A stretch of 64,000 nucleotides of DNA from Dictyostelium discoideum (taxonomy: Eukaryota), in contig CM000153.2 of assembly GCA_000004695.1 (NCBI GenBank), positions 288,001 to 352,000 on the forward strand, in the 5' to 3' direction. Positions 25,715 through 61,293 of this stretch are shown here, piece after piece. The position numbers were made by a program, and so were the translations under genes. The notes below the pieces were generated by a model that had not been told where the DNA came from, searched no databases, and saw nothing but the letters and a program-made list of their open reading frames with translations. The stretch's first letter is position 1. The number at the start of each line of letters is the position of its first letter.

Positions 25715-25918
25715 GGTTATGATGATGATTGTTTGAAAAAAACGAAATTGTTTAAAAAAAAAAAATTAATTTAAATTAGAAAGCAAGATTTTTTTTTTTT
25801 TTCTAGGAAAAGTTCGCCAAAAAAAAAAAGATTTTTTTTAAATTGATTCTATTTTTTCCCACCATTCCTAAACTATGATTTTTTTTTTTCTTTCAAAGTT
25901 TTTTCTTTATTAACTACA

Positions 25919-31418: not shown

Positions 31419-34400
31419 TTATTGAAACAATATTGATATTATAATAAAAAGAGTTGCAACCAATTTGGAGAAAACCGAATGTAAACTAATATCATTGTTT
31501 AGCATTTCTGGATCAGTATTTGAATTAGAATTAGAATTAGAATTATTAAAAAAAGTTTGGGTATAAACTGTTTCAAATTTGTGCTGTGAGAATTTGGAGC
31601 TTTTAATTTGTATTGTAATTGGAGCATCACGAGAATATACTAAACTTAAGTTTTGATTCAATGTAAATTGGCAAATAATGTTTTGATTTTGTTGAATTAT
31701 TTGAGAATGACATTCGATTGTATCTGAAAAAAGACCAGTTATTATATTTTTAAATGTTGTTTTAAAAGAACCAACAACAGTTATATTAAGGAAACCATCT
31801 CCATTTATTTTAAGATTTCCATCTTTAATTTTTGATATTGAATTAATTATTGGTTTTGTTGGATAATTGAATGGAGTCGAATTTATTATAAACTTTCTAC
31901 CATTTTCTAGAGTAATGAATATACTAAAATTACCAGATCCATATGCAAATGGTATATTTAATTGATATATATAGTTTTGAACTGATTTTGATAAAATTTG
32001 TTTATTTGGTGAATAAATTGTACCATTATCAAATTGAAGTTGGAAATCTGTATAATCATAGCCATTGTATTTATCCAATAAGAAATCAGAACTAACTAAA
32101 ATAGTATTATTACTGAAAGTTGAAAATTGTGCTAAACCTCCATCAATTGTTAAATTTTTAGGTAATGGTGGTTGTATAGCTAATGTTTTTGAATCTTTAG
32201 TAAATGTAAAAATTTTGTATTTATTAAAAATTGTATTTGTATTAAATTGTTTTACAATTGTACCAGTTTGAGAGAATTGAGAATCTTGATTACTTTGTGG
32301 TTCATTTATATTGATATATCCACCTAAACAATTACTACATGTAAACAATAGTTGGTCTTGGTCACTTGTAATTGTGAGATCTGGTACCCTTGTATATGAA
32401 TAATCGTCACTATAAACATATACATATGAGAATTGATTAATAACTAAACTAAGTCTTGAACGATCGAAATAGGTTACTTGGTCACTAGAAACAGCAATTT
32501 TACTATCATCTAAATAAAATTTATAATTTGATAATTTTGATACAAAGAGACCCTCCATTATTATAATACCATTTTCAATTGAATATCTATAAATAATTGG
32601 ACGAACTAAATAATATAAAATGTTTTTTGTTAGTGTTAAATGTTAAATTAAATGTTTTGTATGATTGAAATTATAATTTTTGAATTTTTACAAATACTTA
32701 CAGTTTAATCCATTTGTTAAAGTTTCGATATGATAATCATTATTAAATGAAAGTACATTTGTAGAATATGTATTTAATGTGAATGAAATGATATTTGGTT
32801 CAATTAAAGTATAGTCTAAATCATTTCCATTTTTATCATTATATTTAATACTTGTTATTGGAAATAAAGAAAATGGAAATGAAAGATGTAATTGTACCTT
32901 TTCTTGATTTTGAGTGATTGATGAAATCCACTTTACTGGTGGTTGATAGGTAAATAAATTTGAATGAACCAATTTATCTTTAATATAAATTGAAAAATTA
33001 CCATTACCATAACCACTTGGAATATTGAATTTACCTTGTGTTAATACACTATTATTCAAAGTATTATAATCCAATATACATATTGTACCATTTAAAAATT
33101 CTAATTTTCCTATAATATATGCTTGATTATCGTATATTTTTGGAATAAAATGGCCACTTATTGATACTATTGAATTACCATAAAATCCAAATATTTCATT
33201 GCCACTGATATTAACTTTTTGAAAATTAGTTGGTAACGGTAATGCACCAGATCGTCTATATGGATAAATCGGGGCTTCTAAATAAATTCCACTTAAAATG
33301 ATTCCTTTAGTGTCCAATTGGATTGGATAGTATGAATATTTTGTATAATTATTTGGCAATCCTATTGTTTTTGCACCAATACAATTTGTACAATCGATGA
33401 ACAGTAGATTAAAATCATTATCACACCATGAGTTTAATTTCATTTGCTGTTGTGGTTTTAAAATTGGAAATCTGTCAGATGAATAATCAAAGAGTGAAAT
33501 AAAAAAGTAGTTTTCAACATAATCTGTAGAGTTTACCACCAATGTTGTTGAATTGAATGATATTATATTTGATTGGCTTAATATGTGTTTACTTTCGAAA
33601 TTTAATATATATGCTGATAAAAAAATTTTAAAAAATACACCATTTACTGTAATAATATCACCATTGTTTTCACAACTATTGATTATTGGTTCTATAAAAA
33701 GTTAAAATGAACATATTAGAATTTTATAGTTGAAGATAAAAGTGGTGGTAGTATGAAATATTAATTTTTTTAAAAACATAAATTATACATACTAATTGGT
33801 AAAACTTCAATTGCTTCACCATTATTTATTGAAATTAATTTTGAAGAATTTTCATCTAGTGTAAAACGTAAAATATTTGGTTGAACTAATGAATATTTAA
33901 TTGATGTTCTTTTTGTATTTTTATATGGACATACATATTTTGTTTTAATATAAACATTTACATAACAATCATAAAAATTTACAGATGGTGCAGTAAAGTT
34001 AAATTCTTGATTTTCATCACATTGAAAATAATAATTTCTAGTGGAATATCCGCAAATATTATTATTATTACTGTTATATCTTAATTTCAATGCATAATCG
34101 TCAAAACCAAATTTACCAAATTCAAATTCTTCTGTGTTCAAATTTCCAGTTGTATAAAAACTCCCCCTATATATTAATCCAGATTGACTTCTATAGGAAG
34201 ATAGATTTGAACAAATAGAAAAACGGTGCTCATACTAATTAATTTATAAAAATAAAATTTAATAAAATGTAATGCCCAGTACATTAATAAAGCTTCATTA
34301 TACTTACTTGGCTATAATGATCTGGAAAACTGTGATCAACATTTTTTAATTTTGATAAATTCAAAGAAAAATAATTTGAATTAAAAATACATGAATTTAA

Positions 34401-34601
34401 AACGGATGTACCATTAAAATCATAATTATAATATAAATTATCTAAACTTGTTATATTAAATAAATATAAAGGTTGAGTTAATTCAATTTCAACATTACTT
34501 CGAGTTTGAATAATTGATTTAAAGATTGATTGACAATTTAATGTTGTAATAAAAAATAATAACAAAACATTTATTGATAATATTAAATTTGAATAATTCA
34601 T
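31419..34601 (-). CDS. IPT/TIG-like extracellular glycoprotein with GPI-type C-terminus (Tgr-like family), copy 2; intact, 4 exons, ~970 aa
   Basis: Exons 34601..34308 (signal peptide MNYSNLILSINVLLLFFITTLNC; donor CAA|GTAAGT), 34234..33793 (donor A|GTATGT), 33691..32702 (donor T|GTAAGT) and 32605..31419. Phases 0/1/1 are consistent and total 2913 nt. Exons 3-4 carry IPT/TIG-like blocks (NISGNEIFGF..VSISGHFIP....IIGKLEFLNGTICILDYNT...QGKFNIPSGYGNGNFSIYIKDKLVHSNLFTYQPP; PIINSISKIKDGNLKINGDGFLN...IECHSQ...IICQFT) and dozens of NxS/T sequons. The C-terminus SLHSVFSKLVATLFIIISILFQ-stop is a GPI-anchor-like signal. Confidence 0.7.
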
Positions 34602-36811: not shown

Positions 36812-39800
36812 TTATTGAAGCAATATTGATATTAGAATAAAAATAGTAGCAACTAGTTTGGAGAAAACTGAATGTAAACTAATATCACTGCTTAACATTT
36901 CATCGTCAGAATAAGTTTGGGTATAAACGGGCTCAAATTGGAAATTTGAATTTTGGTGGCTTCTAAGTTGTATTTCAATTGGATCATTATCAAAATATAT
37001 TTCCAATTTTTCATGTATTGAAAATTGGCAATTAATATTTTGATTTATTATTTCAGGATAACAATCGATTGTTTCCGAAAGGGTACGATTCTCTTTATAT
37101 AAACTATTTGCTTTAAAAGTACCACGTACAATTACATTAAAGAAACCATCCCCATTCATTTTAATATTTCCATCCTTAATTTTTGATATTGAATTAATTA
37201 TTGGTTTTTTTGGATAATAGAATGGGATTGGATTTATTATAAACTTTCTTCTATTTTCAAAAGTAACAAATACACTAAAATTACCAGATCCATATGCAAA
37301 TGGTGCATTTATTTGATATCTATAGTTTTGATCTGATTTTGATAAAAATTGTTTTTTTGCAGAATGAATTGTACCATTATCAAATTGAAATTGGAAATCG
37401 ATATTATCAAAACCATTGTATTTATCCATTAAGAAATCAGCACTTACTAAAATAGTATTATTACTGAAAGTTGAAAATTGGGCCAAACTTCCATCAACTA
37501 TTACATTTGAAGGTAATGGTGGTTGAATAACTATTGTTTTTGAATCTTTTGTAAATGTAAAAATATTGTATTTGTTAAATATTGTTTTTGTATTAAATTG
37601 TTTTACAATTGTACCAATTTGAGAGAATTGAGAATCTTGATCAGTTTGTGGTTCATTTATATTGATAGATCCACCTAAACAATTACTACATGTAAATAAT
37701 AATTGGTCTTGGTTACTAGTAATCGTGAGATCTGGTACCTTAGTAAATGAATAATCATCAATATAAACATATACATGTGAAGCCTTATTCATAATTAAAC
37801 TAAGTCTAGAACTATCGAAATAGGTTATTTGATCGCTGGAAATAGAATTTTTACTATCATCTAGATAAAATTTATAATTTGACAAATTTGACATAAAGAC
37901 ACCCTCCATTGTTATAACATCATTTTGAATTGAATAGTTATAAATAATTGGACGGACTAAATAGTATATATTATGTTTTTTTGTTAGTGTTAATATGTTA
38001 AATGTTTTGTATGGTTCAAAAATAATAATTTTTGAATGTTTACAAATACATACAGTTTAATTCATTTGTTAAAGTTTCGATATGATAATCATTATTAAAT
38101 GAAAGTACATTTGTAGAATTTGCATTTAATGTGAATGAAATAATATTTGGTTCAATTAAAGTATAGTCTAAATCTATTCCATTTTTATTATTATATTTAA
38201 TACTTGTTATTTGAAAGAAATAAACTGGGAATGAAAGATGTAATTGTACCTTTTCTAGATTTTGGGTGACAGATGATATCCACTTTGATGTTGTATAACT
38301 AAATGGATTTAAATGAACCAATTTATCTTTAATATAAATTGAAAAATTACCATTACCATAGCCACTTGGAATACTGAAATTACCTTCTGTAAATACTCTA
38401 TTACTCAAAGTTTTATAATCCAATATACATATTGTACCATTTGAAAATTCTAATTTTCCTATAATATATGCTTGATTATTATACATTTTTGGAATAAAAC
38501 TGCCACTTATTGAAACTGTTGAGATAACATTAAATTCGAATATTTCATTGCCACTGAAACTAACATGATTAAAATCAGTTGGTAACTGTAATGCACTTGA
38601 TCTTTTATATGGATAAATAGGGGCTTCTATATAAATTTCACTATCATCATTCAAAGTGATATAAATATCACTAACTTCAATTGGAGATGAATCTACTACT
38701 GTATAATTATATAACAATCCTTTTGTATTTGCACCAATACAATTTTTACAATAGATGAAAATTGAATTAAAAAAACCAGATTCATGATCATATCTTGAAC
38801 TTAATACCATTTGTTGTTGTGGCTTTAAAATTGGATAGCTTTCAGATTTAATTCCGAAAAGAGAAATAAAAAAGTTATTGTCAACGTAACCTGTTGAGTT
38901 TACTACCAATGTTGTTGAGTTGAATGATGTTATCATCGGTGGTTTTATTTGATAACCACCGTAATAAAATGTATAATTTGATAATACATTTTTAAAAAAT
39001 ATACCTTTTACTGTAATAACATCACCATTATTTTCACAATTATTGATTACTGGCTCTAAAAGAAGTTTTTTAAATTGTACTTATTAGTATTTTATAGGTT
39101 TTTTTGATTATAAAAGTAGTAGTGGTAGGAAATATTAATTTTTTTAAAAACATAAATTATACATACTAATTGATAAATCTATAGTTTTATTACCATTTAC
39201 TGAAATTAAATTTGAAGAATTTTCATCCAATGTGTAACGTAAAATATTTGGTTCAATTAATGAATATTCAATTGGTGTTCTTTTATTATTTTTATATGGA
39301 CATACATATTTTGTTTTAATATAAACATCTACATTACAATCATTAATGGATGCATATTTTGAGGAAGTAAAGTTAAACTCTTGTCTTTCATCACATATAA
39401 AATAATAATCTCTAGACATTAGATCGGTACCACCAAAAATATTTGGACAAGAAATGTGTGGATTGGTATATGTTAATTTTAATTTATAATTATCATTATT
39501 TATACCCAATTTAAAACTTTCTGTATTTAAGTATCCAGTTGGAAATGAAAATTTCCCATATTCTTCAGCACCAGATTGACTGTTTGTAAAAGATAGATTT
39601 GAACAAATTGAAAAAAAGTGTTTATACTAATTGGTTTAAAAAATAAAAGTTAATAAATGTAAAATGTAATATTTTATAAAGTTTCATTTTACTTACATCA
39701 GGGTTATAATAGTCTGGAAAACTATAGTCAATATTTTTAAATTTTGATAAATCAAAAGAATAATAAGTTGAATTAAAAATACATGAGTTTAAAACAGATG

Positions 39801-39990
39801 TACCATTAAAATCATAATTATAATATAAATTATCTAAACTTGTAATATTAAATAATTTTAATGGTTCGGCCAACTGAATTTCAACATTACTTCCAGTTTG
39901 ATTAATTGAAGTATAGATAAACTGACTATTTAATTTTGTAATAAAAATTAAAAAAAAAATAGTTGATAATATAAAATTTGAAAATTTCAT
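36812..39990 (-). CDS. IPT/TIG-like GPI-type glycoprotein, copy 3; intact, 4 exons, ~966 aa
   Basis: Exons 39990..39697 (MKFSNFILSTIFFLIFITKLNS; donor GAT|GTAAGT), 39626..39167 (donor A|GTATGT), 39055..38054 (donor T|GTATGT) and 37956..36812. Phases 0/1/1 total 2901 nt. Collinear with copies 2 and 6 at ~60-75% aa identity. Confidence 0.7.
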
Positions 39991-41910: not shown

Positions 41911-42651
41911 TTAAAATAATATATTTATTAATAAAAATGCTATTAAGAAAATATTTAAAATTAATTTTGACGATTTTGATGAATTTGGTTCATTTGATTC
42001 CTTTGGTTCATTTGAAGAATTTGGTTCATTTGATGAATTTGGTTCATTTGATTCATTTGGTTCTGGATTTGGTATTGAATTGAAGCAGGATAAATATTGA
42101 TCATTTTTAGTTTTTGAATATAAAGCATCTTTACAATCAATGGAACCATAGGATTCAGTACTTCCAATTCCAGTACAATCTTTTGATGGGTAGGTTGTAA
42201 TAGTGTAATTTTGAAAAGGATCATAATTGATTTTAATATTTGTACCACATACTGATGAACATTTACCTATTGTAACTATTTTATCATCGACACAAGGACC
42301 TTTTACAAATTTGAAAGAATAATATTTTGAAATTAATGTTGAACAAGTTATTTCCCCATCTATTACTTGATTATTATATCCATCATAGCAATTAAAATTA
42401 ACAATAAATGGATAATTTGTGTTTTCATAGTAACCTTGATTTTTGCAATCATAATCTGTAAAGAATGAAATTTGAAAATATGAATTGTACATTTTTGATA
42501 TCTTTGCATTTTTATTACAAAATATGCCACATTCATCCAAGTTTAATACACCATTTTCACAATTCTTTGCTTGTATTTTAAATACATCATATTGTGATGA
42601 CACAATTAAAAAAATATTAAATAAAAATAAGATTAAAAAAATAAATTTCAT
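41911..42651 (-). CDS. Small Cys-rich secreted protein with GPI-type C-terminus, copy S2; intact, single exon, 246 aa
   Basis: Signal peptide MKFIFLILFLFNIFLIVSS and 12+ Cys (NCEN...ECGIFC...DYDC...NFNC...ITC...GPCVDD...GKCSSVCG...KDCTGIG...IDC...LSC). C-terminal (NEPNSS)n-like repeats followed by SSKSSKLILNIFLIAFLLINILF-stop. Paralogues at 25069, 47121 and 50450. Confidence 0.7.
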   Translation of the reverse strand: MKFIFLILFLFNIFLIVSSQYDVFKIQAKNCENGVLNLDECGIFCNKNAKISKMYNSYFQISFFTDYDCKNQGYYENTNYPFIVNFNCYDGYNNQVIDGEITCSTLISKYYSFKFVKGPCVDDKIVTIGKCSSVCGTNIKINYDPFQNYTITTYPSKDCTGIGSTESYGSIDCKDALYSKTKNDQYLSCFNSIPNPEPNESNEPNSSNEPNSSNEPKESNEPNSSKSSKLILNIFLIAFLLINILF

Positions 42652-43059
42652 GTTTGTTGGAAAAAAAGAAAAATGACAAGAAAAAAAAAAAAAAAAAAAA
42701 AATATTATTTGTTATTTTTTAAAAAAAAAAAAAATTTATTTTTGGGACCTGTAAATTTAAGAAAAATATCCTTTTTTCCAATCTAAAAAACCGTTTTTTT
42801 CTTGGGTTTGCAAAAAAAAGTTTCGGCAAACAATAATTTTGAAAACCCAAGAAAAAAACGGTTTTTTTTTTGTTTGCCAAAACTTTTTTTTTTTTTTTAT
42901 ATATTTTTAATCGAATTTTAGTTTTTTAATTAATTTTTTTTATTTTTTTTTTTTTTATAAATTAATTCTCACCAATCCTTTCAAAACAAATTTTTTTTTT
43001 TTTTTTTTTATTTATTAATTTTAATTTTTATTTCATTAATAAAAAGTATATAATAAACA
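42652..43059. promoter_or_regulatory. Divergent (bidirectional) intergenic region between S2 (-) and TIG copy 4 (+), containing a 25-bp-arm palindrome
   Basis: The two ATGs point outward, 408 bp apart. Arm aaaaaaccgtttttttcttgggttt (42785-42809) and its reverse complement aaacccaagaaaaaaacggtttttt (42843-42867) are interleaved with a second short inverted pair, ggcaaacaa (42825-33) and ttgtttgcc (42870-78). Confidence 0.45.
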
Positions 43060-46000
43060 ATGAATTATTCAAATTTAATAATATCAATAAATTTTTTGTT
43101 ATTATTTTTTATTACAACATTAAATAGTGAATCAATCTTTAAATCAATTTATCAAACTGGAAGTAATTTTGAAATTAAATTGACTCAACCATTATATTTA
43201 TTTAATATTACAAGTTTAGATAATTTATATTATGATTATGATTTTAATGGTACATCAGTTTTAAATTCATGTATTTTTAATTCAAATTATTTTTCTTTGA
43301 ATTTATCAAAATTAAAAAATGTTGATCATAGTTTTCCAGATCGTGACTCTATGACAAATATTGAGCACCTTTTTTCAATTTGTTCCGAACTGTCTTCCTA
43401 TAGCAGTCAATCTGGTTTTATTAAAAGTGAAAGAAAGGAATTTGTTGCAACTGGAGATTTAAATAAAGAAAGTTTTAAATTTGGTAGACTTGGTGTTGAT
43501 AATTATGCATTGAAATTAACATATTCCAGTAATAATTTGTTTTATTGTGAAAGATATGGTGGTACCACTAGAAATTATTATTTTCAATGTGATGAAAATC
43601 AAGAATTTAACTTTACTGCACCATCTGTAAATTTTTATGATTGTAATGTAGATGTTTATATTAAAACAAAATATGTATGTCCATATAAAAATACCAAAAA
43701 AACACCAATTAAATATTCATTAGTTCAACCAAATATTTTACGTTTTACAATGGATGAAAATTCTTCAATTTTAATTTCAGTAAATAATGGTAATGCAATT
43801 GAATCTTTACCACCAATCAGTATGTATAATTTATTTTTTTAAAAAAATTAATATTATTTCCTACCACTACTTTTATCTTAAACTATAAAATTCTAAATGT
43901 TCATTTTAATTTTTTTATAGAGCCAATAATCTATAGTTGTGAAAACAATGGTGGTGATATTATTACAGTAAATGGTTTATTTTTTGAAAATTTTTTATCA
44001 AATTATACATTAAATTTCGAACCGTTTCTGATAGACATATTTGATCCATCAGTAATAATATCATTCAATTCAACAACATTGGTAGTAAACTCTACAGGTT
44101 ATGTTGATAATTACTTAATTATTTCTTTCTTTTATTATCAATCTGAAAGATTTCCAATTTTAAAACCACAACAGCAAATGGAATTAAGTTCATGGTATGA
44201 TGATGATTTTGATATGCTGTACAGAATGTACAAATTGTATTGGTGCAAAAACAATAGGATTGCCATATACTTATACAATACCTTCATACTACCCATTCTC
44301 ATTTTACACTGAAAAAATCATTTTAAGTGGAATTTATTTAGAAGCCCCAATCTATCCATATAAAAGATCAAATGCATTACCGTTACCAACTAATTTTCAA
44401 AAAGTTAATATCAGTGGTAATGAAATATTCGAATTTAATGGTAATTCAATAGTATCAATAAGTGGCCGTTTTATTCCAAAAATATACGATAATCAAGCAT
44501 ATATTATAGGAAAATTAGAATTTTTAAATGGTACAATATGTATATTGGATTATAATACTTTGAATAATAGTGTATTAACACAAGGTAAATTCAATATTCC
44601 AAGTGGTTATGGTAATGGTAATTTTTCAATTTATATTAAAGATAAATTGGTTCATTCAAATGCATTTACTTATCAACCACCATCAAAGTGGATTTCATCA
44701 ATCACTCAAAATCAAGAAAAGGTACAATTACATCTTTCATTTCCATTTTCTTTATTACAAATAACAAGTATTAAATATAATGATAAAAATGGAAAAGATT
44801 TAGACTATACTTTAATTGAACCTAATATCATTTCATTGACATTAAATACATATTCTACAAATGTACTTTCATTTAATAATGATTATCATATCGAAACTTT
44901 AACAAATGGGTTAAACTGTAAGTAAATACTATCATACAAATTATTTAATTTTACATATAACACTAACAAAAAACATTTTATATTATTTAGTTCGTCCAAT
45001 TATTTATAGCTATTTTAGTAATTCAATTGAAAATGGTACGAATATAATAATGGAGGGTCTCTTTGTATCAAAATTGTCAAATTATAAATTTTATTTAGAT
45101 GATAGTAAAATTGCTGTTTCTGGTGACCAAGTAACCTATTAAACAATTCTCATATGTATATGTTTATAGTGACGATTATTCATATACAAGGGTACCAGAT
45201 CTCACAATTACAAGCGAGCAAGACCAACTATTGTTTACATGTAGTAATTGTTTAGGTGGATATATCAATATAAATGAACCAGAAAGTAATCAAGATTCTC
45301 AATTCTCTCAAATTGGTACAATTGTAAAACAATTTAATACAAATACAATTTTAAATAAATACAATGCTTTTACATTTACCAAAGACTCAAAAACAATATT
45401 TATACAACCACCATTACCTTCAAATGTAAAAATTGATGGAGGTTTAGCTCAATTTTCAACTTTCAGTAATAATAATATTTTAGTTAGTGGTGATTTTTTA
45501 TTGGATATATTCAATCGTTTTGATTATACAAATTTCCAACTTCAATTTGATAATGGTACAATTTATTCACCAAATAAACAGATTTTATCAAAATCAGATC
45601 AAAACTATGTTTATCAATTAAATATACCATTTGCATATGGATCTGGTAATTTTAGTGTATTTTCTACTCTAGAAAATGGTAGAAAGTTTATTATAAATTC
45701 AACTCCATTCAATTATCCAAAAACACCAATAATTAATTCAATATCAAAAATTAAAGATGGAAATCTTAAAATAATTGGAGATGGTTTCTTTGATGTAGTT
45801 GTTTTTGGTTCTTTTAAAACAACATTTAAAAATATAACAACTGGTCTTTTTTCAGATACAATCGAATGTCATTCTCAAATAACTCAACATCAAAACATTA
45901 TTTGCCAATTTACAATGAATCAAAACTTTAGTTTAGTATATTCTCAAGATACTCCGATTACAATACAAATTAAAAGCTCCAAATACTCACAGCACCAATT

Positions 46001-46220
46001 TGAACCAGTTTATACCCAAACTTTTTTCAATAATTCAAATCCAAATTCTAATTCAAATTCTAATTCAAATTCAAATTCAAATTCAAATTCAAATTCAAAT
46101 TCAAATTCAAATTCAAATTCAAATTCAATTTTAATTTCAAATTCAAATTCAAATTCAAATTTAGTTTTCTCCAAATTTGTAGCAACTATTTTTATTTTAA
46201 TATCAATATTGTTTCAATAA
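43060..46220 (+). pseudogene. TIG-like glycoprotein family copy 4: full-length but disrupted (frameshift in exon 3, stop/deletion at start of exon 4). Lacks intron 1.
   Basis: ORF 43060..43842 fuses the exon-1 and exon-2 homologues with no intron (..VDHSFPDRDSMTNIEHLFSICSELSS..). The exon-3 homologue switches frame between ORFs 44079..44312 and 44197..44925. The exon-4 homologue begins with a stop (..GDQVTY-stop) and is deleted relative to DQVTYFDSSRLSLIMNQ. The C-terminal (AATTCA)n expansion encodes (NS)n. Confidence 0.7.
46040..46165. repeat. (AATTCA)n hexamer repeat inside the coding C-terminus of TIG copy 4
   Basis: Encodes NSNSNS... immediately before the hydrophobic tail. A shorter version is present in copy 2 (NNSNSNSNSNTDPEM). 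Confidence 0.85.
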
Positions 46221-46643
46221 ATAAAAATAAATTAATAAAATTATCAAATAAAATATTATTTTGTATCATCTTTTATAATCGTCTTTTTAATGTTCATAAA
46301 AGGAATTCTGGAAACAAACTAAAATTTGAACAGTTTTTTTTTTTTTTTAAAATATTCTATTATTTTGGGGACTCGGTTATTTCTCCTCACTCACCTCGTT
46401 TAGGATTATAAAAAATAAATAAATTTACTCTTTACAAAACCAAATGAAATTCAAAATAAAAAAAATATGTATTTATTTTATTTTAATAAAAAATTTTTAT
46501 TATTATTCTCATATGATTTTATTGTTTAAGTTCTTTCTGAACATGCTATTTTTTTTTGTAAAGTTTTTTTTATTATTTTCCATTTCTTTTCTTTTCTTTT
46601 TCTTTTCTTTTTCTTTTTTTTTTTTCTTTTTCTTTTCTTTTCT

Positions 46644-46749
46644 TTTCCTTTCTATTACTATTACTATTACTATTACTATTACTATTACTATTACTATTAC
46701 TATTACTATTACTATTACTATTACTATTACTATTACTATTACTATTACT
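46644..46749. repeat. (ACTATT)n hexamer satellite preceded by a (CTTTT)n-like pyrimidine tract
   Basis: Seen directly. Confidence 0.85.
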
Positions 46750-47030
46750 TCGTAAAATGACAAAAATAAAAAAATAAAAAAAATAAAAATAAAAAAACAA
46801 ATAAATAAAAAAGATATATTACATTTATTTTTTTTTTTTTTTTATTTTTTTTTTATTTTTTTGGATTGACACTATTTTTATTTGATTTGATTTCTTTTAA
46901 TTTAATTTATTGTTAAAACCATTCAAGTTTGGGCACTTTTCAAAATATGAAAATTATATAAAAATATTTGAAATTACATTTGCGCAAATTTGGATGGTTT
47001 TCACAATAATTTAATTTAATTTAATTTAAT

Positions 47031-47110
47031 TTGGTTCGATTTGATTTAATTTGATTTGATTTGGTTTGATTTGGTTTGATTTGATTTGGTTTAATTTGAT
47101 TTGATTTGAT
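47031..47110. repeat. (GATTTG)n / (AATTTG)n satellite at the 3' end of the S3 pseudogene
   Basis: It occupies the position where intact S2 has coding repeats (ttggttcatttga)n. It looks like a degenerate derivative of those repeats. Confidence 0.8.
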
Positions 47111-47120
47111 TATTATTTTT

Positions 47121-47665
47121 TTAAAATAATATATTTTTAGTTTTTGAATATAAAGCATCTTTACAATCAATGGAACCATAGGATTCAGTACTTGCAATTC
47201 CAGTACAATCTTTTGATGGGTAGGTTGTAATAGTGTAATTTTGAAAAGGATCATAATTGATTTTAATATTTGTACCACATACTGATGAACATTTACCTAT
47301 TGTAACTATTTTATCATCGACACAAGGACCTTTTACAAATTTGAAAGAATAATATTTTGAAATTAATGTTGAACAAGTTATTTCCCCATCTATTACTTGA
47401 TTATTATATCCATCATAGCAATTAAAATTAACAATAAATGGATAATTTGTGTTTTCATAGTAACCTTGATTTTGGCAACTATAATCTGTAAAGAATGAAA
47501 TTTTAAAAAGTTCATCGTACACCTTTAAAATCTTTGCATTTTAATACAAAATATGCCACATTCATTCAAGTTTAATACACCATTTTCACAATTCTTTGCT
47601 TGTAATTCAAATACATCATATTGTGATGATACAACTAAAAAAATATTAAATAAAAATAAGATTAA
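47121..47665 (-). pseudogene. Small Cys-rich GPI-type protein family, copy S3: near-identical duplicate of the S2 core, with 5' indels and a truncated/replaced 3' end
   Basis: 47150-47470 is almost identical to 42100-42420. The region homologous to the S2 start (47523-47660) has indels that break the frame. The ORF ends ...KTKNILF-stop, with no GPI tail. Confidence 0.7.
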
Positions 47666-48089
47666 AAAAATAAATTTCATATTTGTTGGTAAAAACATTA
47701 ACGTATTAAAAAATAAAAAAAAAAAAAATATTATATATTATTTTTAAAAAAATATATTCTCGGCACTGGTAAATTTAAGAAAAAATCTCTTTTTGGAATT
47801 ATAAAAACGAAACACGTTAAAAAGTTTTTTTTTTTTGAAATACCAAGAAAAATAAAAAGTTTTTTTTTTTTTTTTATTTTAATTATTTTTTTATTATTTG
47901 TTTTTCCAATTTTTCTAGAACCTTGGTTTACAAAGATTTTTTATTATTTTTTTTAATTTTTTTAATTTTTTTTTTTTTTTTTTTTTTGCAGATTCCCGAT
48001 CATCTATGATAATCCTTTCCAAAAAATTGTTTTTTTATTTTTTTTTTTTTTTTTAAATTTTAATAAATTTTATTTTAAAAATCAATTTG

Positions 48090-50328
48090 TTCCAAACTGC
48101 CTTCCTATAGCAGTCAATCTGTTATTATATATAAAAAGTCATTTTTTACAACTGGAGATTTAAATAAAGAAAAATTTGAATTTGGTAGATTTGGTGTTGA
48201 TAATTATGCAAGTCCTGGTTGTTCAACTAGAAATTATTATTTTCAATGTGATGAAAATCAAGAATTAACTTTACTGCACCATCCAACGTAAATTATTTTG
48301 ATTGTAATGTAGATGTTTATATTAAAACAAAACATGTATGTCCATATAAAAATACCAAAAAAACACCAATTAAATATTCATTAATTCAACCAAATGTTTT
48401 AGTTTTACATTGGATGAAAATTCTTCAAATTTAATTTCAGTAAATAATGGTAATGTAATTGAATCTTTACTTCAATATACCAAGTGGACATGGTAAAGGT
48501 ACTTTTTCAATTTATATTAAAGATAAATTGGTTCATTCGAATTCATTAAATTATCAACCCCATCAAAGTGGATATTATCAATCACTCAAAATCAAGAAAA
48601 GGTACAATTACATCTTTCATTTCCATTTTCTTTATTACAAATAACAAGTATTAAATATAATGATAAAAATGGAAAAGATTTAGACTATACTTTAATTGAA
48701 CCAAATATCATTTCATTCACATTAAATACATATTCTACAAATGTACTTTCATTTAATAATGATTATCATATTGAAGCTTTAACAAATGGATTAAACTGTA
48801 AGTATTTGTAAACATTCAAAAAATATAATTTTATTCATACAAAATATTTAATTTTATATTTAACACTAACAAAACATTTTATATTATTTAGTTCGCCCAA
48901 TTATTTATAGATATTCAATTGAAAATGGTGCTAAAATAACAATGGAGGGTCTCTTTGTATCAAATTTGTCAAATTATAAATGGAAAAGATTTAGACTATA
49001 CTTTAATTGAAACAAATATTATTTCATTCACATTAAATACATATTCTACAAATGTTCTTTCATTTAATGATGATTATCATATTGAAACATTAACAAATTC
49101 ATTAAACTGTATGTATATTTTAAAGATTAAAAACTAATCAAAATTTTTTAAATTCATAACTCACCAAAAAACATTTTATATTATTTAGATCGTCCAATTA
49201 TTTATAGTTATTCAATTCAAAATGGTATTATAACAATGGAGGGTCTCTTTGTATCAAAATTATCAAATTATAAATTTTATCTAGATTTTAGTAAAATTGC
49301 TGTTCCCAGCGATCAAGTAACCTATTTCGATAGTTCAAGAATCAGTTTAATTATGAATCAGGTTTCACATGTATATGTTTATAGTGATGAGAATTTATTT
49401 ACCATGGTACCAGATATCACGATTACAAGCCAGCAAGACCAATTATTGTTTACATGTAGTAATTGTTTAGGTGGATATATCAATATAAATGATCCAGAAA
49501 GTAATCAAGAATCTCAATTCTCTCAAATCGGTACAATTGTAAAACAATTTAATACAAATACAATTTTTAATAAATACAATGCTTTTACATTTACAAAAGA
49601 TTCAAAAACTATAGTTATACAACCGCCACTACCTTCAAATGTAAAAGTTGATGGAAGTTTAACTTAATTTTCAACATTCAGCAATAATACTATTTTATTT
49701 AGTGGTGATTTCTTATTGCATAAATACAATGGTTTAAATTATACTGATTTCCAATTTCAATATGATAATGGTACAATTTATTCGGCAAAAAAACAAATTT
49801 TATCAAAATCTGATCAAAACTATAAATATCAAATAAATGCACCATTTGCATATGGATCTGGTAATTTTAGTGTATTTGTTACTTTTGAAAATGGTAGAAA
49901 GGTTATAACAAATTCAATTCCATTCAATTATCCCAAAAAACCAATAATTAATTCAATATCAAAAATTATGGATCAATCGACATTATACAATAAGTGGCGA
50001 TGGTTTCTTTGATGTTATAGTAATTCCTTCTTTTAAATCAAACATTTATTCAGAAACAATCGAATGTCATCCTGAAATAATAAATCAAAATATTATTTAC
50101 CAGTTTGAAATGAAACAAGAATCCTCGGTAGATTCTCAATATCCAATTGAAATAAAAATTGAAAGCCTTGAATACTCACCTTTCCAATTTGAACCATTAT
50201 ATACCCAAACCTTTTTTTATGACCCAAATTCTGATTCAGAAATTTTAAAGAGTGATATTAGTTTACATTCAGTTTTCTCCAAATTATTTGCATCTCTTTT
50301 TGTTCTAATATCAAAATTGTTTCAATAA
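48090..50328 (+). pseudogene. TIG-like glycoprotein family copy 5: heavily decayed (exon-2 fragment, partial duplicated exon-3 3' ends, frameshifted exon 4)
   Basis: Fragments match the exon-2 (..TRNYYFQCDENQE..KYVCPYKNTKKTPIKYSL..), exon-3 3' end (duplicated at 48600-48790 and 48975-49110) and exon-4 homologues. The exon-4 region splits into ORFs 49236..49667, 49716..50012 and 50110..50328 with stops between them. Confidence 0.7.
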
Positions 50329-50449
50329 ATAAAAATAAATTAATAAAATTATCAGATTAACTTTCAATAAAAAAAACAATAAAACAATAAATAAACAAAG
50401 ATACTAAAAAACATGTTGCTTCTTTTATTTTTTTTGTTTTTTTTTTTTT

Positions 50450-51091
50450 TTAAAACAATAAATTTATTAATAAAAATGTTAATAATATAAATTTGTGGAT
50501 TGTAATTAATTTAGAAGATATTGATCCATTTGATTCTATATTTGGAGTTGATTTTAAACAGGATAAATATTGATCGTTATTAGTTTTTGATAATAATTGA
50601 TTTTTACAATCAATTGATCCATAGAATTCAGTACTTCCAATTCCAGTACAATCATTCGAAAGGTAGGTTGTAATAATGTAATTTTGAAAAGGATCGTAAT
50701 TGATTATAATATTTTTGCCACATACTGATGAACATATACCCAAAAAAATTAATTTATCATCGACACAAGGACCCTCAACAAATTTGAAAGAATAATATTT
50801 TGAAATTAATGTTGAACAAATTATTTCCCCATATCTACCAATAGTATTAATTTCATTACTGCAATTAAATGGAATATATGGACGAGGGTCTTGATAGCAA
50901 ATAGCATCAGTATAGACTTTGATTGATTTTACGTTCTCGATAAATAAATATTCATTACAAAATTTACCACATTCTTGAAGAGTTAATGTGGTATTTTCAC
51001 AGCCCTTTGATTGTAATTTAAATACATCAAATTCTGATGATACAATTAAAAAAATATTAAATAAAAATAGGAATAATAAAATATATTTCAT
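50450..51091 (-). CDS. Small Cys-rich secreted protein with GPI-type C-terminus, copy S4; intact, single exon, 213 aa
   Basis: MKYILLFLFLFNIFLIVSSEFDVFKLQSKGCENTTLTLQECGKFC...ICSTLISKYYSFKFVEGPCVDDK...CGKNIIINYDPFQNYIITTYLSNDCTGIGSTEFYGSIDCKNQ...SSKLITIHKFILLTFLLINLLF-stop. Confidence 0.7.
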   Translation of the reverse strand: MKYILLFLFLFNIFLIVSSEFDVFKLQSKGCENTTLTLQECGKFCNEYLFIENVKSIKVYTDAICYQDPRPYIPFNCSNEINTIGRYGEIICSTLISKYYSFKFVEGPCVDDKLIFLGICSSVCGKNIIINYDPFQNYIITTYLSNDCTGIGSTEFYGSIDCKNQLLSKTNNDQYLSCLKSTPNIESNGSISSKLITIHKFILLTFLLINLLF

Positions 51092-51769
51092 GTTATAAAA
51101 TAAAAGAAAAAAAAAATAAAAGAAAAAAAAAAATAAAAGAAAAAAAAAAATAAAAAAAAATAAAAATTAAATAAAAGAAAAAAAAAAAAATATATTTTCA
51201 AATAAAATCGATTACAAATTCTATTAACCCATCTTTTTTTTTTTCGAAATGAAAAAGATTTTTTTTCTTTAAAATCAAAGAATTATAGCGAATTTTTTTT
51301 TTTCGTATTTTTGCAATGTTAAAAAAAAAAAAAGAAAATGTCAAAAATCAATCACAAATTAATTTTTTTTTAATTATTTTTTTTTTATATGTTAAAAAAT
51401 AAACTGATACCATTTGACACTTTCAAAAGCCAAAAAAACGGAGGATTTTTTACCAAAGATTTTTTTTTTTTTTCCAATTATTATTTTTTTTTTAATTTTC
51501 TTAATTAAAATTTTTAGAAAACTAAGATTTTTTTTGTAAAAAGCCGATTTTTATCCCAAAAAAATTTTAGAAAACAAAGATTTTTTTATTTTTTTTCTAA
51601 TAATATAAACCAGAATAATTCATTTAAAAGTCAGAAAAGAAAAAAAAAGTTATTTAATATATTATTATTTTTTTTTTTTTGTCCATAAATATTTTTTTTT
51701 ATTTTTTTATTTTTTTTTCCTTAACAATTATTTAATTATTTTATAAATAAAAAGATTATTTAATAAAAA

Positions 51770-54700
51770 ATGAATTTTCCAAAATTTATATTATTAAATA
51801 TTTTATTATTAATTTTTGCCTCGACATTAAATAGTCAATCAATCTTTAGTTCAATTAATCAAAATGGAAGTAATGTTGAAATTAAATTAGTTCAACCATT
51901 ATATTTATTTAATATAACAAATTTAGATAATTTATATAATGATTATGATTTAAATGGTACATCTGTTTTAAATTCATGTATTTTTAATACAACATATTTT
52001 TCTTTGGATTTATCAATATTAAAAAATATTGACTATATTTTTAAAGATTCCAATAGCAAAGTAAGTAATTGAAACATAATAAAAATTTTAAACATTACAT
52101 TTTATTAACTTTTATTTTTGAAAACTAAATAGTATCAACACCTTTTTTCAATTTGTTCCCGAACTAAACTATATTCTGCTCAGTCTGTTATGCTTAATGA
52201 AAATGGGCAATCTTTTACAACTGGAAATTTGAATACAGAGAAATTTGAAATCGGTAGGTTCGGTTTAAATAATTATTCATTAAAGTTAACCTATACCAAT
52301 CCTGCATTCTCCTTATGTTCTAATAGTGGTTCAACTAGAAATTATTATTTTCAATGTGATGAAAATCTAGAATTTAACATCACATCCCCAAACTCGAAAA
52401 ATGTAAATTATTATGATTGTAATGTAGATGTTACTATCGCAACAAAATATGTATGTCCATATAAAAATATCAAAAAATCATCAATTAAATATTCATTAAT
52501 TCAACCAAATATTTTACGTTTTACATTGGATGAAAATTCTTCAAATTTAATTTCAATAAATAATGGAAAAGTATATGAAGTTTTACCAATTAGTATGTAT
52601 AATTTATATTTTTTAAAAAAAAAAATTAAAATTTCCTACCACCAATTTTATCTTCCACTACTACTACTAATAATACTACTTTTATCAACAATAAAAAATT
52701 CTAATACACTCATTTCATTAAACTTTTACATTTTATAGAGCCAATAATCCATAGTTGTGAAAATAATGGTGATATTATTACAGTAAATGGTTTATTTTTT
52801 AAAAATATATTATCAAATTATACATTTGGTTTCGATGGTCAATTAACAATGAACCGTTCGAATATAATATCATTCAATTCAACAACATTGGTATTAAACT
52901 CTACAGGTTATGTTGACAATAACTTTTTTATTTCACTCTTTGAAAATAAATCTGATAGCTATCCAATTTTAAAACCACAACAGCAAATGGTATTAAGTTC
53001 ATGGTATGATTATAGTTTTCGTAAGGAACGTCTTAACATTGATTGTACAAATTGCCTTGGTGCAAAAACAATAGGAATACAAAATATCTATACAAAATAT
53101 GCACATTCAATAAAAATACCCCCTGAAGATATCAATTTTAGTGGAATCTATTTAGAAGCCCCTATTTATCCTTTTAAAAGATCAAATTTATTGCCATTAC
53201 CAACTAATATTATAGGAGTTAATGATAATAAAATATTTCAATTTAATGGAATTTCAATAGTTTCAATAGCTGGTTATTTTATTCCAAAAATGTATGATAA
53301 TCAAGCATATATTACAGGAAAATTAGAATTTTCAAATGGTACATTATGTATATTGGATTATTATACTTTGGATAGTAATGTATTAACACAAGGTAAATTC
53401 AATATTCCAAGTGGTTATGGTAATGGTAATTTTTCAATTTATACTAAAGATAAGTTGGTTCATTCAAATTCATTTACTTATCAACCACCATCAAAGTGGA
53501 TATCATCAATCACACAAAATTTAGAAAAGGTACAATTACATCTTTCATTTCCATTTTCTTTTTTTCCAATTACAAGTATTAAATATAATGATAAAAATGG
53601 AAAAGATTTAGACTATACTTTAATTGAACCAAATATCATTTCATTCACATTAAATACATATTCTACAAATGTACTTTCATTTAATGATGATTATCATAAC
53701 GAAACTTTAACAAATGGATTAAACTGTATGTATAGATTAAAAATTATAATTTAAATTTAAAATTTTTAATTTTATAACTCACCAAAAAACATTTTATATT
53801 ATTTAGATCGTCCAATTATTTATAGTTATTCAATTCAAAATGGTATTATAACAATGGAGGGTTTCTTTATATCAAATTTATCAACTTATAAATTTTATCT
53901 TGATAATAGTAAAAATGCTGTTTCCAGCGATCAAATAACCTATTTCGATAGTTCAAGAATCAGTTTAATTATGAATCAGGCTTTATATGTATATGTTTAT
54001 TGTGATGACTATTCGTTTACAATGGTACCAGATCTCACAATTACAAGCCAGCAAGACCAATTATTGTTTACATGTAGTAATTGTTTAGGTGGATCTATCA
54101 ATATAAATGAACCCCAGAGTAATCAAGATTCTCAATTCTCACAAATCGGTACAATTGTAAAACAATTTAATACAAATACAATTGTTAATAAATACAATAT
54201 TTATACATTTACTAAAGATTCAAAAACAATAATTATTCAACCACCTTTACCTACAAATTTAATATTTGGTGCAAGTTTACCTAAATTTTCAACATTCAGT
54301 AATAATACTATAATAATTAGTTCTGATTTCTTATTGGATAAATATAATGGTTTTGATTACACAGATTTCCAACTTCAATTTGATAATGGTACAATATATC
54401 CAGTAAAAAAACAACTTTTATCAAAATCAGCTCAAAACTATAAATATCAAATAAATGCACCATTTGCATTTGGATCTGGTAATTTTTGTACATTTATTAC
54501 TTTTGAAAATAATAGAAAGTTAATAAATTCAATTCCATTCTATTATCCAGCAAGACCAATAATTAATTCAATATCAAAAATTAAGATTGGTGGTTTTAAA
54601 ATAAGTGGTGATGGTTTCTTTAATGTATCTTTAATTGCTTCTTTTAAAAAAAATTTGGTAAATACAACCACTGGTGTTATAAAAAATGTTATCCGATGTG

Positions 54701-54966
54701 ATCCTCAAACAACCCAAAGTCAAAATTTAGATTGTGAATTTATAAATACAATACATACAGATAAATTAAATGAATTTCCAATTACAATACTAATTAAAAG
54801 CCAAAGTAATTCACTGTTCAGATTTGAACCATTTTATATCCAATCTTATTTTTATTATCCAAATTCTTATTCATATTATGAAATGAACAATGATATTAGT
54901 TTACATTCGGTTTTCTCCAAATTAGTTGCAACTATTTTTATTATAATATCAATATTGCTTCAATAA
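51770..54966 (+). CDS. IPT/TIG-like GPI-type glycoprotein, copy 6; intact, 4 exons, 965 aa
   Basis: Exons 51770..52060 (donor AAA|GTAAGT), 52133..52592 (acceptor ..aaatag|TAT; donor A|GTATGT), 52739..53725 (acceptor ..tatag|AG; donor T|GTATGT) and 53807..54966 (acceptor ..atttag|AT). Phases 0/1/1 total 2898 nt. Signal peptide MNFPKFILLNILLLIFASTLNS. C-terminus SLHSVFSKLVATIFIIISILLQ-stop. Confidence 0.72.

Positions 54967-56000: not shown

Positions 56001-56036
<36 letters not shown>

Positions 56037-56810: not shown

Positions 56811-56846
<36 letters not shown>

Positions 56847-58023: not shown

Positions 58024-58090
<67 letters not shown>

Positions 58091-61227: not shown

Positions 61228-61293
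<66 letters not shown>

What the first reader, a model, noticed from the sequence alone, without database searches (positions are those of the whole stretch)
41911..54966. Recurrent head-to-head cassette: small Cys-rich GPI protein gene paired divergently with a TIG-like glycoprotein gene (4 instances)
Each plus-strand TIG-like copy is preceded, in opposite orientation and 400-700 bp away, by a member of a second family: S1/copy 1 (25.07-25.71 | 25.92), S2/copy 4 (41.91-42.65 | 43.06), S3/copy 5 (47.1-47.7 | 48.1) and S4/copy 6 (50.45-51.09 | 51.77). These are 210-250 aa proteins with a signal peptide, 12 or more Cys, and a GPI-type tail. The pair was therefore duplicated as a unit and shares a bidirectional promoter region. 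This architecture is analogous to the divergently transcribed tgrB1-tgrC1 ligand/receptor pair, but here one partner is a small disulfide-rich protein with no TIG signature that I can match to a described family. Intact S2 and S4 differ substantially (a cluster of substitutions around residues 40-80 and different C-terminal repeats), consistent with co-diversification with their partners. The two minus-strand intact TIG copies (2 and 3) lack an S partner, so the pairing can be gained or lost. I hypothesise that this is a co-regulated two-component surface recognition/adhesion cassette.
Basis: inference. Interest (0 to 1): 0.85.

Follow-up and report, generated by a model that had tools for sequence, protein, structure and literature searches.

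The report
Paired amoeba surface-protein genes, mostly decayed
A young, undescribed pair of Dictyostelium cell-surface genes (a small 12-cysteine protein and a large lectin-plus-Ig-like protein) sits head-to-head and has been copied several times, but most copies here are dead and nothing yet shows that the two proteins work together.

Summary
The anatomy is real. The window is Dictyostelium discoideum AX4 chromosome 4. It holds four copies of a small gene (S), each head-to-head with a copy of a large gene (T). A fifth pair lies elsewhere on chromosome 4.

Only one of the four pairs in the window, S4|T6, has both genes intact. S1, S3, T1 and T5 are pseudogenes. T4 has two frameshifting deletions. 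S2 is intact but unannotated.

S has a signal peptide, two homologous 6-Cys domains and a GPI-type tail. It has no relatives outside the D. discoideum clade and D. firmibasis.

The head-to-head pair is ancestral, because D. firmibasis carries a single pair. In D. discoideum it evolves by birth and death. Protein change is about 10 times faster than in housekeeping neighbours, while synonymous divergence is at baseline, so this is not tgr-like hyperpolymorphism.

Solo S genes, solo T genes and a convergent arrangement in D. citrinum all exist. One-domain S relatives lie beside unrelated ComC-like surface genes.

Functional coupling is plausible but untested. A shared promoter and co-diversification are not shown.

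The parts
25075..25713 (-). S1, an S-family pseudogene. A 1-bp frameshift in the signal peptide gives MKFIFIFI*, and the fourth Cys is replaced by Tyr.
   Evidence: Sequence read. S-profile hit at 25707-25075. Closest relative is S5/DDB_G0283101 (8.6% nt distance).
25913..27895 (+). T1, a 5'-truncated T pseudogene. It has no exon 1 or MRH exon, starts at profile position 292, and has several frame changes. It lies 199 bp from S1.
   Evidence: Profile hits. Sister to T7 (9.2% nt distance).
31422..34601 (-). T2 = DDB_G0283227 (P0010, 970 aa). Intact, 4 exons, no S partner.
   Evidence: Exon mapping. No S remnant upstream. About 345 bp of upstream homology to the S|T spacers ends before the position where S would start.
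36815..39990 (-). T3 = DDB_G0283229 (P0016, 957 aa). Intact, no S partner. It is a tandem copy of the roughly 5.3-kb T2 unit.
41911..42651 (-). S2, an intact 246-aa ORF: signal peptide, two 6-Cys domains, (NEPNSS)n-type repeat and GPI-type tail. The exact sequence is absent from the protein collection, so it is probably unannotated in AX4.
   Evidence: The ACTFIR orthologue is called as a 247-aa gene, 91.5% identical, omega 0.35.
42652..43059 (.). S2|T4 divergent spacer, 408 bp, 15% G+C.
   Evidence: Identity between AX4 and ACTFIR is 0.83, no higher than other intergenic DNA.
43060..46220 (+). T4, a T pseudogene. It has a 2-bp deletion near 44224 (exon 3), a 29-bp deletion near 45137 (exon 4), and a 66-bp in-frame deletion of most of intron 1.
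   Evidence: Alignment to T2 and T6. Frame breaks. No AX4 protein matches it. The ACTFIR orthologue is called as 989 aa.
47124..47680 (-). S3 = DDB_G0283235 (P0001; the database model uses an intron to skip a frameshift). It lacks the last Cys and the GPI tail, and its 3' end runs into an AAATC-type microsatellite. Likely pseudogene.
48082..50328 (+). T5, a heavily degraded T pseudogene. Exon 1 is missing, there is an internal deletion of profile positions 241-465, a duplicated segment, and frameshifts.
50450..51091 (-). S4 = DDB_G0283241 (P0005, 213 aa). Intact.
   Evidence: Exact match. Features. AX4/ACTFIR orthologue omega 0.71.
51092..51769 (.). S4|T6 divergent spacer, 678 bp, 13% G+C.
51770..54966 (+). 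T6 = DDB_G0283243 (P0008, 965 aa). Intact. Exons are 51770-52060, 52133-52591 (MRH domain), 52741-53724 and 53809-54966.

Best explanation
This is a lineage-restricted two-gene cassette for cell-surface glycoproteins, evolving by birth and death.

S is a small secreted protein, probably GPI-anchored, built from two homologous 6-Cys domains.

T is a protein of about 960 aa. It has a signal peptide, an N-terminal domain, an MRH (P-type lectin fold) domain encoded by exon 2, and two homologous modules of about 330-380 aa that contain IPT/TIG- and filamin-type beta-sandwiches. It ends in a conserved C-terminal hydrophobic anchor signal.

The head-to-head S|T arrangement predates the split between D. 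discoideum and D. firmibasis. In the D. discoideum complex the pair was amplified by segmental and tandem duplication, sometimes without S. Copies are then lost quickly through deletions, frameshifts and transposon insertion, and are partly homogenised by gene conversion.

Shown: the anatomy, the folds of T, the distribution, the decay, and the evolutionary rates.

Inferred: that the 0.4-0.7 kb spacer drives both genes, and that S and T act together at the cell surface. The most likely form of this is S as a partner or ligand of T, possibly through its conserved N-glycan site and T's lectin domain.

I give about 0.8 to the conserved-cassette, birth-and-death part. I give about 0.3-0.35 to a direct S-T functional partnership.
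For: Anatomy and identity:
- Copies and coordinates.
- Exact matches to DDB_G0283241, DDB_G0283243, DDB_G0283227 and DDB_G0283229.

All five AX4 S loci are head-to-head with a T copy, including the extra pair DDB_G0283101|DDB_G0283139.

The same arrangement is found in:
- D. firmibasis, with a 415-bp spacer and different flanking genes.
- D. cf. discoideum, locus L003.
- The ACTFIR assembly, loci L009 and L011.

S structure and constraint:
- 12 invariant Cys, signal peptide and tail.
- The two halves are homologous (hhalign E 5e-6, all six Cys aligned).
- S is under constraint: omega is 0.35-0.71 between orthologues.

T fold:
- The MRH C-terminal motif aligns to 2v5p.
- Foldseek gives strings of Ig/FnIII domains.
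- The internal repeat has hhalign probability 99%.

Pattern of loss:
- Across the pairs seen in AX4, L003 and L009, S and T were intact together 4 times and dead together 4 times. S was intact beside a dead T once, and S was never dead beside an intact T.
- These pairs are not independent observations.

Independent hint of a theme:
- One-domain S relatives lie next to ComC-like surface genes. In D. citrinum they form an alternating array with four small genes.
- The ComC-like genes are unrelated in sequence to T.
Against: - No expression or interaction data for S were found.
- The spacers are not more conserved than other intergenic DNA and show no shared motif.
- Head-to-head neighbours separated by a few hundred bp are common in this compact genome (my own knowledge). 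Tandem duplication copies any two neighbours together.
- T2 and T3, the syntenic counterpart of T6 in L003, and D. citrinum P0023 are T genes without S.
- D. firmibasis P0025 is an S gene without T.
- In D. citrinum, S and T are convergent with a retroelement fragment between them.
- S2 has stayed intact next to a dead T4.
- The S and T trees are only partly congruent.
- The AF2 model of S is unusable (pLDDT 45).
Confidence: 0.5

Rival explanations
1. The adjacency is a historical accident. S and T are two unrelated, fast-evolving surface-protein genes that happened to be neighbours in the ancestor. Segmental duplication then copied them together, and they have no functional or regulatory coupling.
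For: - Solo S and solo T genes exist.
- The arrangement is convergent in D. citrinum.
- The spacer is not specially conserved.
- The duplicated blocks also carry a third gene, U (window 23593-25110 and L001 11470-12912).
- The S and T trees are partly incongruent.
Against: - The pair is kept head-to-head in D. firmibasis even though the flanking genes are entirely different.
- All five AX4 S loci are next to T.
- Intactness of the two partners goes together.
- A second S-type subfamily is also arrayed with large surface-protein genes.
Confidence: 0.35
2. This is a tgrB1/tgrC1-like polymorphic ligand-receptor (allorecognition, or 'greenbeard') system in which S and T co-diversify.
For: - Geometry: linked, divergently oriented genes for surface proteins.
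- Elevated omega: S domain 1 is 0.8-1.5 among paralogues, and the T C-terminal domain is 1.0-1.4.
- S distances track the T C-terminal domain best (r 0.72-0.93, 10 non-independent pairs).
- Copy number varies between strains.
- tgrB1/tgrC1 are two linked genes for polymorphic membrane proteins that act as ligand and receptor (PMC11088635).
Against: - AX4/ACTFIR orthologues have dS of 0.11-0.18 against 0.08-0.10 for the neighbouring pyruvate kinase and eIF2B-epsilon genes. That is baseline divergence, with omega below 1.
- T has no Pfam TIG hit. The tgr family is defined by TIG repeats and comprises tgrA to tgrT (PMC12745789).
- Neither S nor T has a cytoplasmic domain that could signal.
- Most copies in the reference strain are dead, and T2 and T3 work without S.
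Confidence: 0.08
3. T is an intracellular sorting or quality-control lectin of the mannose-6-phosphate receptor type, as suggested for DDB_G0283243 in PMC12954983. S is then unrelated, or merely a glycoprotein cargo.
For: - The MRH fold is well supported.
- The paper reports a D413Y substitution in DDB_G0283243 in a suppressor strain, and places the gene in a co-expression module that correlates positively with starvation.
Against: - There is no cytoplasmic tail to carry sorting motifs, because the hydrophobic segment ends the protein.
- The family is multi-copy, evolves fast and is restricted to one clade. This is unlike the conserved trafficking receptors.
- The best sequence match is to CI-MPR domains 11-13, which include the IGF2-binding part. 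Sugar-binding residues were not assessed.
- The mutation in that paper is one of four in the strain and was not shown to be causal.
Confidence: 0.07

Closest known systems
tgrB1-tgrC1 locus of D. discoideum (Tgr family)
   Same: Two linked genes encode glycosylated cell-surface proteins with Ig-like (E-set) sandwich domains, in a multigene family that turns over fast (PMC11088635; PMC12745789; fold hits). The head-to-head orientation of tgrB1/tgrC1 is from my own knowledge and was not checked here.
   Different: - Only one partner (T) has Ig-like domains. The other (S) is a small 12-Cys protein.
- T has no Pfam TIG hit and carries an MRH lectin domain.
- Both proteins end in a hydrophobic tail with no cytoplasmic domain.
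- Orthologues show baseline dS, not hyperpolymorphism.
- T genes are not among tgrA to tgrT.
Mannose-6-phosphate receptor homology (MRH, P-type lectin) domain proteins: CI-MPR, CD-MPR, OS-9/Yos9, GNPTG
   Different: - The architecture is a single MRH domain followed by IPT/TIG-like sandwiches and a C-terminal anchor signal.
- There is no cytoplasmic sorting tail.
- The family is confined to the clade, multi-copy and fast-evolving.
- No Pfam MRH-type family reaches even E=10.
Small GPI-anchored Cys-containing surface proteins of Dictyostelium (for example the ponticulin-like family)
   Same: The general build is the same: signal peptide, a short Cys-containing ectodomain, a Ser-rich linker and a C-terminal hydrophobic GPI-type signal. 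The comparison is from my own knowledge of that family.
   Different: A profile search of 1.84 billion representative proteins with the S profile returned only S and mini-S proteins. Pfam and PDB sequence searches gave nothing. Any relationship is therefore below sequence detection. No direct comparison was made, because no ponticulin sequence could be fetched.
ComC-like surface proteins with adjacent mini-S genes (DUF7034/DUF7035/DUF7949/ComC_SSD)
   Same: A small 6-Cys, GPI-type gene homologous to S domain 1 sits next to a large surface-protein gene and is duplicated together with it. In D. citrinum L006 the two gene types alternate, with four small genes. L007 and L010 show the same neighbourhood.
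   Different: - The large partner is unrelated to T (hhalign probability 0.3%).
- The nearest neighbour is convergent rather than divergent.
- The small protein has one domain, not two.

Membership tests
Tgr (tiger) family | Extracellular IPT/TIG repeats detectable at sequence level (Pfam TIG, PF01833); the family was enumerated by similarity to tgrA-T (PMC12745789) | tested here: not met
   hmmscan of T exons and of full-length P0008, P0012, P0022 and P0023 against Pfam found no TIG hit up to E=10. The sources name these proteins 'MRH domain-containing protein', not Tgr.
Tgr (tiger) family | Ig-like (E-set, IPT/TIG) fold of the ectodomain | tested here: met
Tgr (tiger) family | Type I transmembrane protein with a cytoplasmic domain (cytoplasmic domains mediate signalling, PMC12745789) | tested here: not met
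   All T proteins end in ...NDISLHSVFSKLVATIFIIISILLQ. The hydrophobic segment is the C-terminus.
Tgr (tiger) family (tgrB1/C1-type allorecognition pair) | Extreme polymorphism of both partners between strains | tested here: inconclusive
   Only one orthologous comparison was possible (AX4 against ACTFIR). dS was 0.11-0.18 against 0.08-0.10 in the housekeeping neighbours, and omega was 0.33-0.71. No population sample was available.
MRH / P-type lectin domain proteins | MRH fold (flattened beta-barrel with conserved disulfides) | tested here: met
MRH / P-type lectin domain proteins | Sugar-binding residues (Gln, Arg, Glu, Tyr) and mannose or Man-6-P binding | not tested
   No residue-level structural alignment was available. 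Binding needs glycan-array or pull-down experiments.
GPI-anchored proteins (both S and T) | N-terminal signal peptide, plus a C-terminal hydrophobic segment preceded by small residues (the omega site), with no cytoplasmic tail | tested here: met
   Sequence features only. S: mean Kyte-Doolittle hydropathy is 2.5-3.1 for residues 3-18 and 2.1-2.5 for the last 18 residues, preceded by SS(T)SSK. The T tail was read. No GPI predictor was available and no experiment exists.
Bidirectional-promoter gene pair | Co-expression driven from a shared spacer, with conserved regulatory elements | not testable with these tools
   Only the geometry is known (spacers of 408 and 678 bp). The spacer is no more conserved than other intergenic DNA and has no shared motif. 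No expression tables were reachable.

The most novel reading that the evidence does not exclude
Small GPI-anchored 6-Cys proteins are dedicated partners (ligands or co-receptors) of large surface adhesins in the D. discoideum clade. S would pair with the MRH-lectin/TIG-like T proteins, and the one-domain mini-S with ComC-like proteins. S|T would then be a second, lectin-based, genetically linked heterophilic recognition pair alongside TgrB1/TgrC1. Its rapid gene turnover would contribute to strain or species discrimination during aggregation.
Probability: 0.12. Interest if true: 0.8.

Novelty: new variant of a known kind. Interest (0 to 1): 0.42.

Why it matters
Dictyostelium is the main model for how free-living cells recognise partners and build a multicellular body. 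So far one linked gene pair, tgrB1/tgrC1, explains kin recognition.

This locus adds several undescribed elements:
- A protein family (S) built from two 6-Cys domains with a GPI-type tail.
- A domain architecture (T) that combines an MRH lectin domain, IPT/TIG-like domains and a C-terminal anchor signal.
- A physical linkage between S and T that has persisted since before the split from D. firmibasis, while copies are gained and lost quickly.

If S and T do interact, this would be a tractable second case of linked surface partners, with only two intact pairs in AX4 to knock out. If they do not, it is a clean example of birth-and-death evolution in a young surface-gene cluster.

There is also an annotation consequence. 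S2 looks like a missed gene, while T4 and S3 are pseudogenes.

Tried and rejected
- AlphaFold2 of S with the 9-sequence family alignment gave pLDDT 44.8. This is too poor for a fold search, so I made no fold claim for S and did not use the third fold search on it.
- The afdb50 fold library was unavailable.
- Pfam on S gave only noise: Trypan_PARP on the repeat and MiAMP1 at E 0.34. PDB sequence search with the S profile found nothing.
- I looked for S remnants upstream of T2 and T3 with nhmmer and with word-size-2 tblastn, and found none.
- I looked for shared promoter motifs in the spacers by alignment. Only A/T runs aligned.
- I tested whether T and ComC-like proteins are distant homologues, which would make S|T and mini-S|ComC one ancient pair. 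hhalign probability was 0.3%, so I rejected this.
- Expression: the six gene IDs occur in the main text of only one paper. Supplements of PMC8327917, PMC6198379, PMC6650454, PMC12954983 and PMC4931340 either held nothing or did not contain the IDs.
- The mirror-tree correlation was computed, but I do not count it as evidence of co-evolution. The 10-15 distances are not independent. The most variable regions also track shared duplication history best, because gene conversion homogenises the rest.
- I rejected the idea that the S genes are spurious ORFs. All 12 Cys are conserved as far as D. firmibasis, and omega is below 1 in orthologues.
- The tRNA scan and Pfam on the neighbouring small ORFs found nothing relevant.


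Full report
**Origin of the window**

The window is 14-34% G+C when measured in 2-kb windows. The S4 ORF and the exons of three large genes match D. discoideum AX4 proteins exactly. These are DDB_G0283241, DDB_G0283243, DDB_G0283227 and DDB_G0283229. A paper places DDB_G0283243 at chromosome 4:341,224 (PMC12954983).

**Check of the observation**

tblastn and profile scans find four S copies, all on the minus strand:
- S1: 25075-25713
- S2: 41911-42651
- S3: 47124-47680
- S4: 50450-51091

They also find six T copies:
- T1: 25913-27895 (+)
- T2: 31422-34601 (-)
- T3: 36815-39990 (-)
- T4: 43060-46220 (+)
- T5: 48082-50328 (+)
- T6: 51770-54966 (+)

Each plus-strand T has an S gene upstream in the opposite orientation. 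The recurrent geometry is therefore real.
- S1 has a 1-bp frameshift in its signal peptide and a Cys-to-Tyr change.
- S3 is frameshifted and lacks the last Cys and the tail. The database model DDB_G0283235 uses an intron to bridge the frameshift.
- T1 starts at profile position 292, so it lacks exon 1 and the MRH exon. It lies only 199 bp from S1.
- T5 lacks exon 1 and has an internal deletion and frameshifts.
- T4 carries a 2-bp deletion near 44224 and a 29-bp deletion near 45137, both frameshifting. It also has a 66-bp in-frame deletion of most of intron 1. No AX4 protein corresponds to it.

Within the reported interval, only S4|T6 is an intact pair. S2 is an intact ORF, but the exact sequence is absent from the 15-billion-protein collection. 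No S remnant exists upstream of T2 or T3. The duplicated unit that holds T2 and T3 is about 5.3 kb and includes about 1.1 kb of upstream sequence without S.

**What S is**

S2 and S4 each have a hydrophobic N-terminus and exactly 12 Cys. They end in a Ser-rich stretch followed by a hydrophobic tail that runs to the C-terminus. These are the sequence features of a GPI signal.

The 12 Cys form two 6-Cys units with the same spacing. hhalign of the two halves gives E 4.8e-6 with all six Cys aligned.

S has no Pfam family and no PDB relative by sequence. An exhaustive profile search of 1.84 billion representative proteins found only six clusters. All are from D. discoideum-complex assemblies, D. 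citrinum or D. firmibasis. The AlphaFold model was too poor to use (pLDDT 45).

**What T is**

The intact T genes have four exons and encode 957-971 aa. Each has a signal peptide, 16-22 N-glycosylation sequons, and a strongly conserved C-terminal ...NDISLHSVFSKLVATIFIIISILLQ with nothing after the hydrophobic segment.

Pfam gives no hit, and in particular no TIG hit.

The C-terminal MRH motif aligns to CI-MPR at the sequence level, although weakly (E 0.33-0.56). UniProt already labels these proteins 'MRH domain-containing'.

Exons 3 and 4 encode two homologous modules (hhalign probability 99%, E 7e-18).

So 'TIG-like' is right at fold level only. The tgr family is defined by TIG repeats and comprises tgrA to tgrT (PMC12745789).

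**Distribution of the pair**

| Genome / locus | Arrangement |
|---|---|
| AX4 chr 4, L001 | S5 = DDB_G0283101 and T7 = DDB_G0283139, head-to-head but split by an integrase-encoding insertion. Part of a larger duplicated block that also holds a paralogue of the 505-aa ORF 23593-25110. |
| D. firmibasis, L004 | One S (P0024) and one T (P0022), head-to-head, 415 bp apart, with different flanking genes |
| D. firmibasis, L005 | A second S (P0025) with no T nearby |
| D. cf. discoideum, L003 | One intact pair. One S-fragment/T-fragment fusion. The syntenic counterpart of T6 has no intact S next to it. |
| ACTFIR assembly, L009 and L011 | Orthologues of S2|T4 (called as 247 and 989 aa) and of S4|T6. 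One further intact pair and one decayed pair. No counterpart of S3/T5. |
| D. citrinum, L002 | S and T are neighbours but convergent, with a retroelement fragment between them |
| D. citrinum, L008 | A truncated T stands alone |

In AX4 no S is annotated away from a T gene.

**A related subfamily**

The profile search also found one-domain relatives, which I call mini-S. Each has a signal peptide, one 6-Cys domain homologous to S domain 1, and a GPI-type tail.

Mini-S genes lie next to large ComC-like genes (DUF7034, DUF7035, DUF7949, ComC_SSD). In D. citrinum L006, four small genes alternate with four ComC-like genes. Single mini-S genes lie beside ComC-like genes in L007 and L010. ComC-like proteins are unrelated to T by profile comparison.

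This is a second association between an S-type gene and a large surface-protein gene. It too rests on duplication of a two-gene segment.

**Evolutionary rates**

Among AX4 T paralogues, omega is 0.6-0.7 overall and 1.0-1.4 in the C-terminal domain. dS ranges from 0.1 to 0.85 along the gene, a mosaic that indicates gene conversion.

Among S genes of the discoideum complex, omega is 0.6-1.5 in domain 1 and 0.4-0.8 in domain 2. All Cys are conserved.

Syntenic orthologues from AX4 and ACTFIR give a cleaner comparison:

| Gene | dS | omega |
|---|---|---|
| Pyruvate kinase (neighbour) | 0.10 | 0 |
| eIF2B-epsilon (neighbour) | 0.08 | 0.05 |
| S2 | 0.12 | 0.35 |
| S4 | 0.12 | 0.71 |
| T6 exons | 0.11-0.18 | 0.33-0.58 |

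S and T are therefore constrained, functional genes. Their proteins change about ten times faster than those of their neighbours, but their synonymous divergence is at the genomic baseline. This single comparison gives no sign of tgr-like hyperpolymorphism.

**Did S and T duplicate and diversify together?**

S1/S5 (8.6% nt distance) and T1/T7 (9.2%) agree. S2/S3 differ by 3.0% while T4/T5 differ by 14.5%, and T4 is closest to the S-less T2 at 7.5%. The histories are only partly shared, or have been blurred by gene conversion.

Distances between S genes correlate best with distances in T's hypervariable C-terminal domain (r 0.72-0.93). The points are few and not independent, so I do not treat this as evidence of co-evolution.

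**Promoter**

The spacers are 13-19% G+C and share no motif beyond A/T runs. Between AX4 and ACTFIR they are 0.83-0.84 identical, compared with 0.85-0.87 for other intergenic DNA. A shared bidirectional promoter is a reasonable guess from the geometry, but nothing supports it beyond that.

**Expression**

I could find only one item. DDB_G0283243 falls in a large co-expression module that correlates positively with starvation. It also carries one of four mutations in a suppressor strain, and causality was not shown (PMC12954983). No data on S were reachable.

**Conclusion**

The finding is a real, undescribed, clade-restricted two-gene cassette for surface glycoproteins that evolves by birth and death. 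The AX4 reference holds two intact pairs (S4|T6 and S5|T7), one widowed S (S2), two S-less T genes, and several relics.

A functional partnership between S and T is the most economical reading of three observations: the conserved head-to-head linkage, the joint decay of partners, and the parallel mini-S/ComC-like arrays. It remains an inference, at roughly one chance in three. Solo genes, the D. citrinum arrangement and the lack of promoter conservation keep the 'mere neighbours' explanation alive. The specific analogy to the tgrB1/tgrC1 allorecognition pair is not supported by the tests that could be run.

Noticed in passing
window 41911-42651 (-): S2 is an intact 246-aa ORF whose exact sequence is absent from the protein collection. 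Its ACTFIR orthologue is called as a 247-aa gene, and omega between the two is 0.35. It is probably a missed gene in the AX4 annotation.
   Followed up: partly
window 43340-43365 (T4 intron 1): T4 has lost 66 bp of intron 1, leaving exons 1 and 2 fused in one open frame of 260 aa (43060-43842). T2 and T6 keep an intron of about 73 bp here. In the ACTFIR orthologue the exon 1 and exon 2 profile hits are separated by about 50 bp, which suggests the intron is still there.
   Followed up: partly
window 23593-25110 (+); L001 11470-12912; L009 16770-18257: A 505-aa ORF with a signal peptide and a C-terminal hydrophobic tail has no family above the Pfam cut-off. Its 3' end overlaps that of S1. It is co-duplicated with the S1/S5-type pairs, so the duplicated block holds three genes.
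   Followed up: partly
L001 6772-9269: An ORF with integrase (rve) domains, pointing to a retrotransposon, is inserted in the spacer between S5 (DDB_G0283101) and T7 (DDB_G0283139). It splits the presumed shared promoter of an otherwise intact pair.
   Followed up: no
L006 1710-20441 (D. citrinum); L007; L010: One-domain relatives of S (mini-S, 109-147 aa, plus one internally duplicated 289-aa copy) alternate with ComC-like genes (DUF7034/7035/7949/ComC_SSD) in a tandem array. No mini-S protein is annotated in AX4.
   Followed up: partly
window 3263-7657 (-): A 1464-aa poly-Q/poly-N-rich ORF contains a run of N (an assembly gap). It accounts for the strong GC and AT skew at 4-8 kb.
   Followed up: no
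L011 and window 50300-64000: The assembly labelled D. discoideum (GCA_054859385.1, locus tags ACTFIR) differs from AX4 by dS of about 0.1 at pyruvate kinase and eIF2B-epsilon, and by about 12% across the whole syntenic region. It behaves like a separate lineage rather than an ordinary strain.
   Followed up: partly
window 35087-35280, 55858-56117, 59170-59371, 61229-61458: A degenerate AT-rich repeat of 150-200 bp (about 70-74% identity) occurs in both orientations at several places, including upstream of T2.
   Followed up: no
window 47040-47110: An AAATC/AAACC-type microsatellite replaces the 3' end of S3 (last Cys and GPI tail).
   Followed up: no
L011 12020-12091: The ACTFIR orthologue of T6 shows a frame break or 11-aa gap at the start of exon 4, and the exon 4 alignment has 8 gap columns. 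It may be a pseudogene or mis-modelled there.
   Followed up: no
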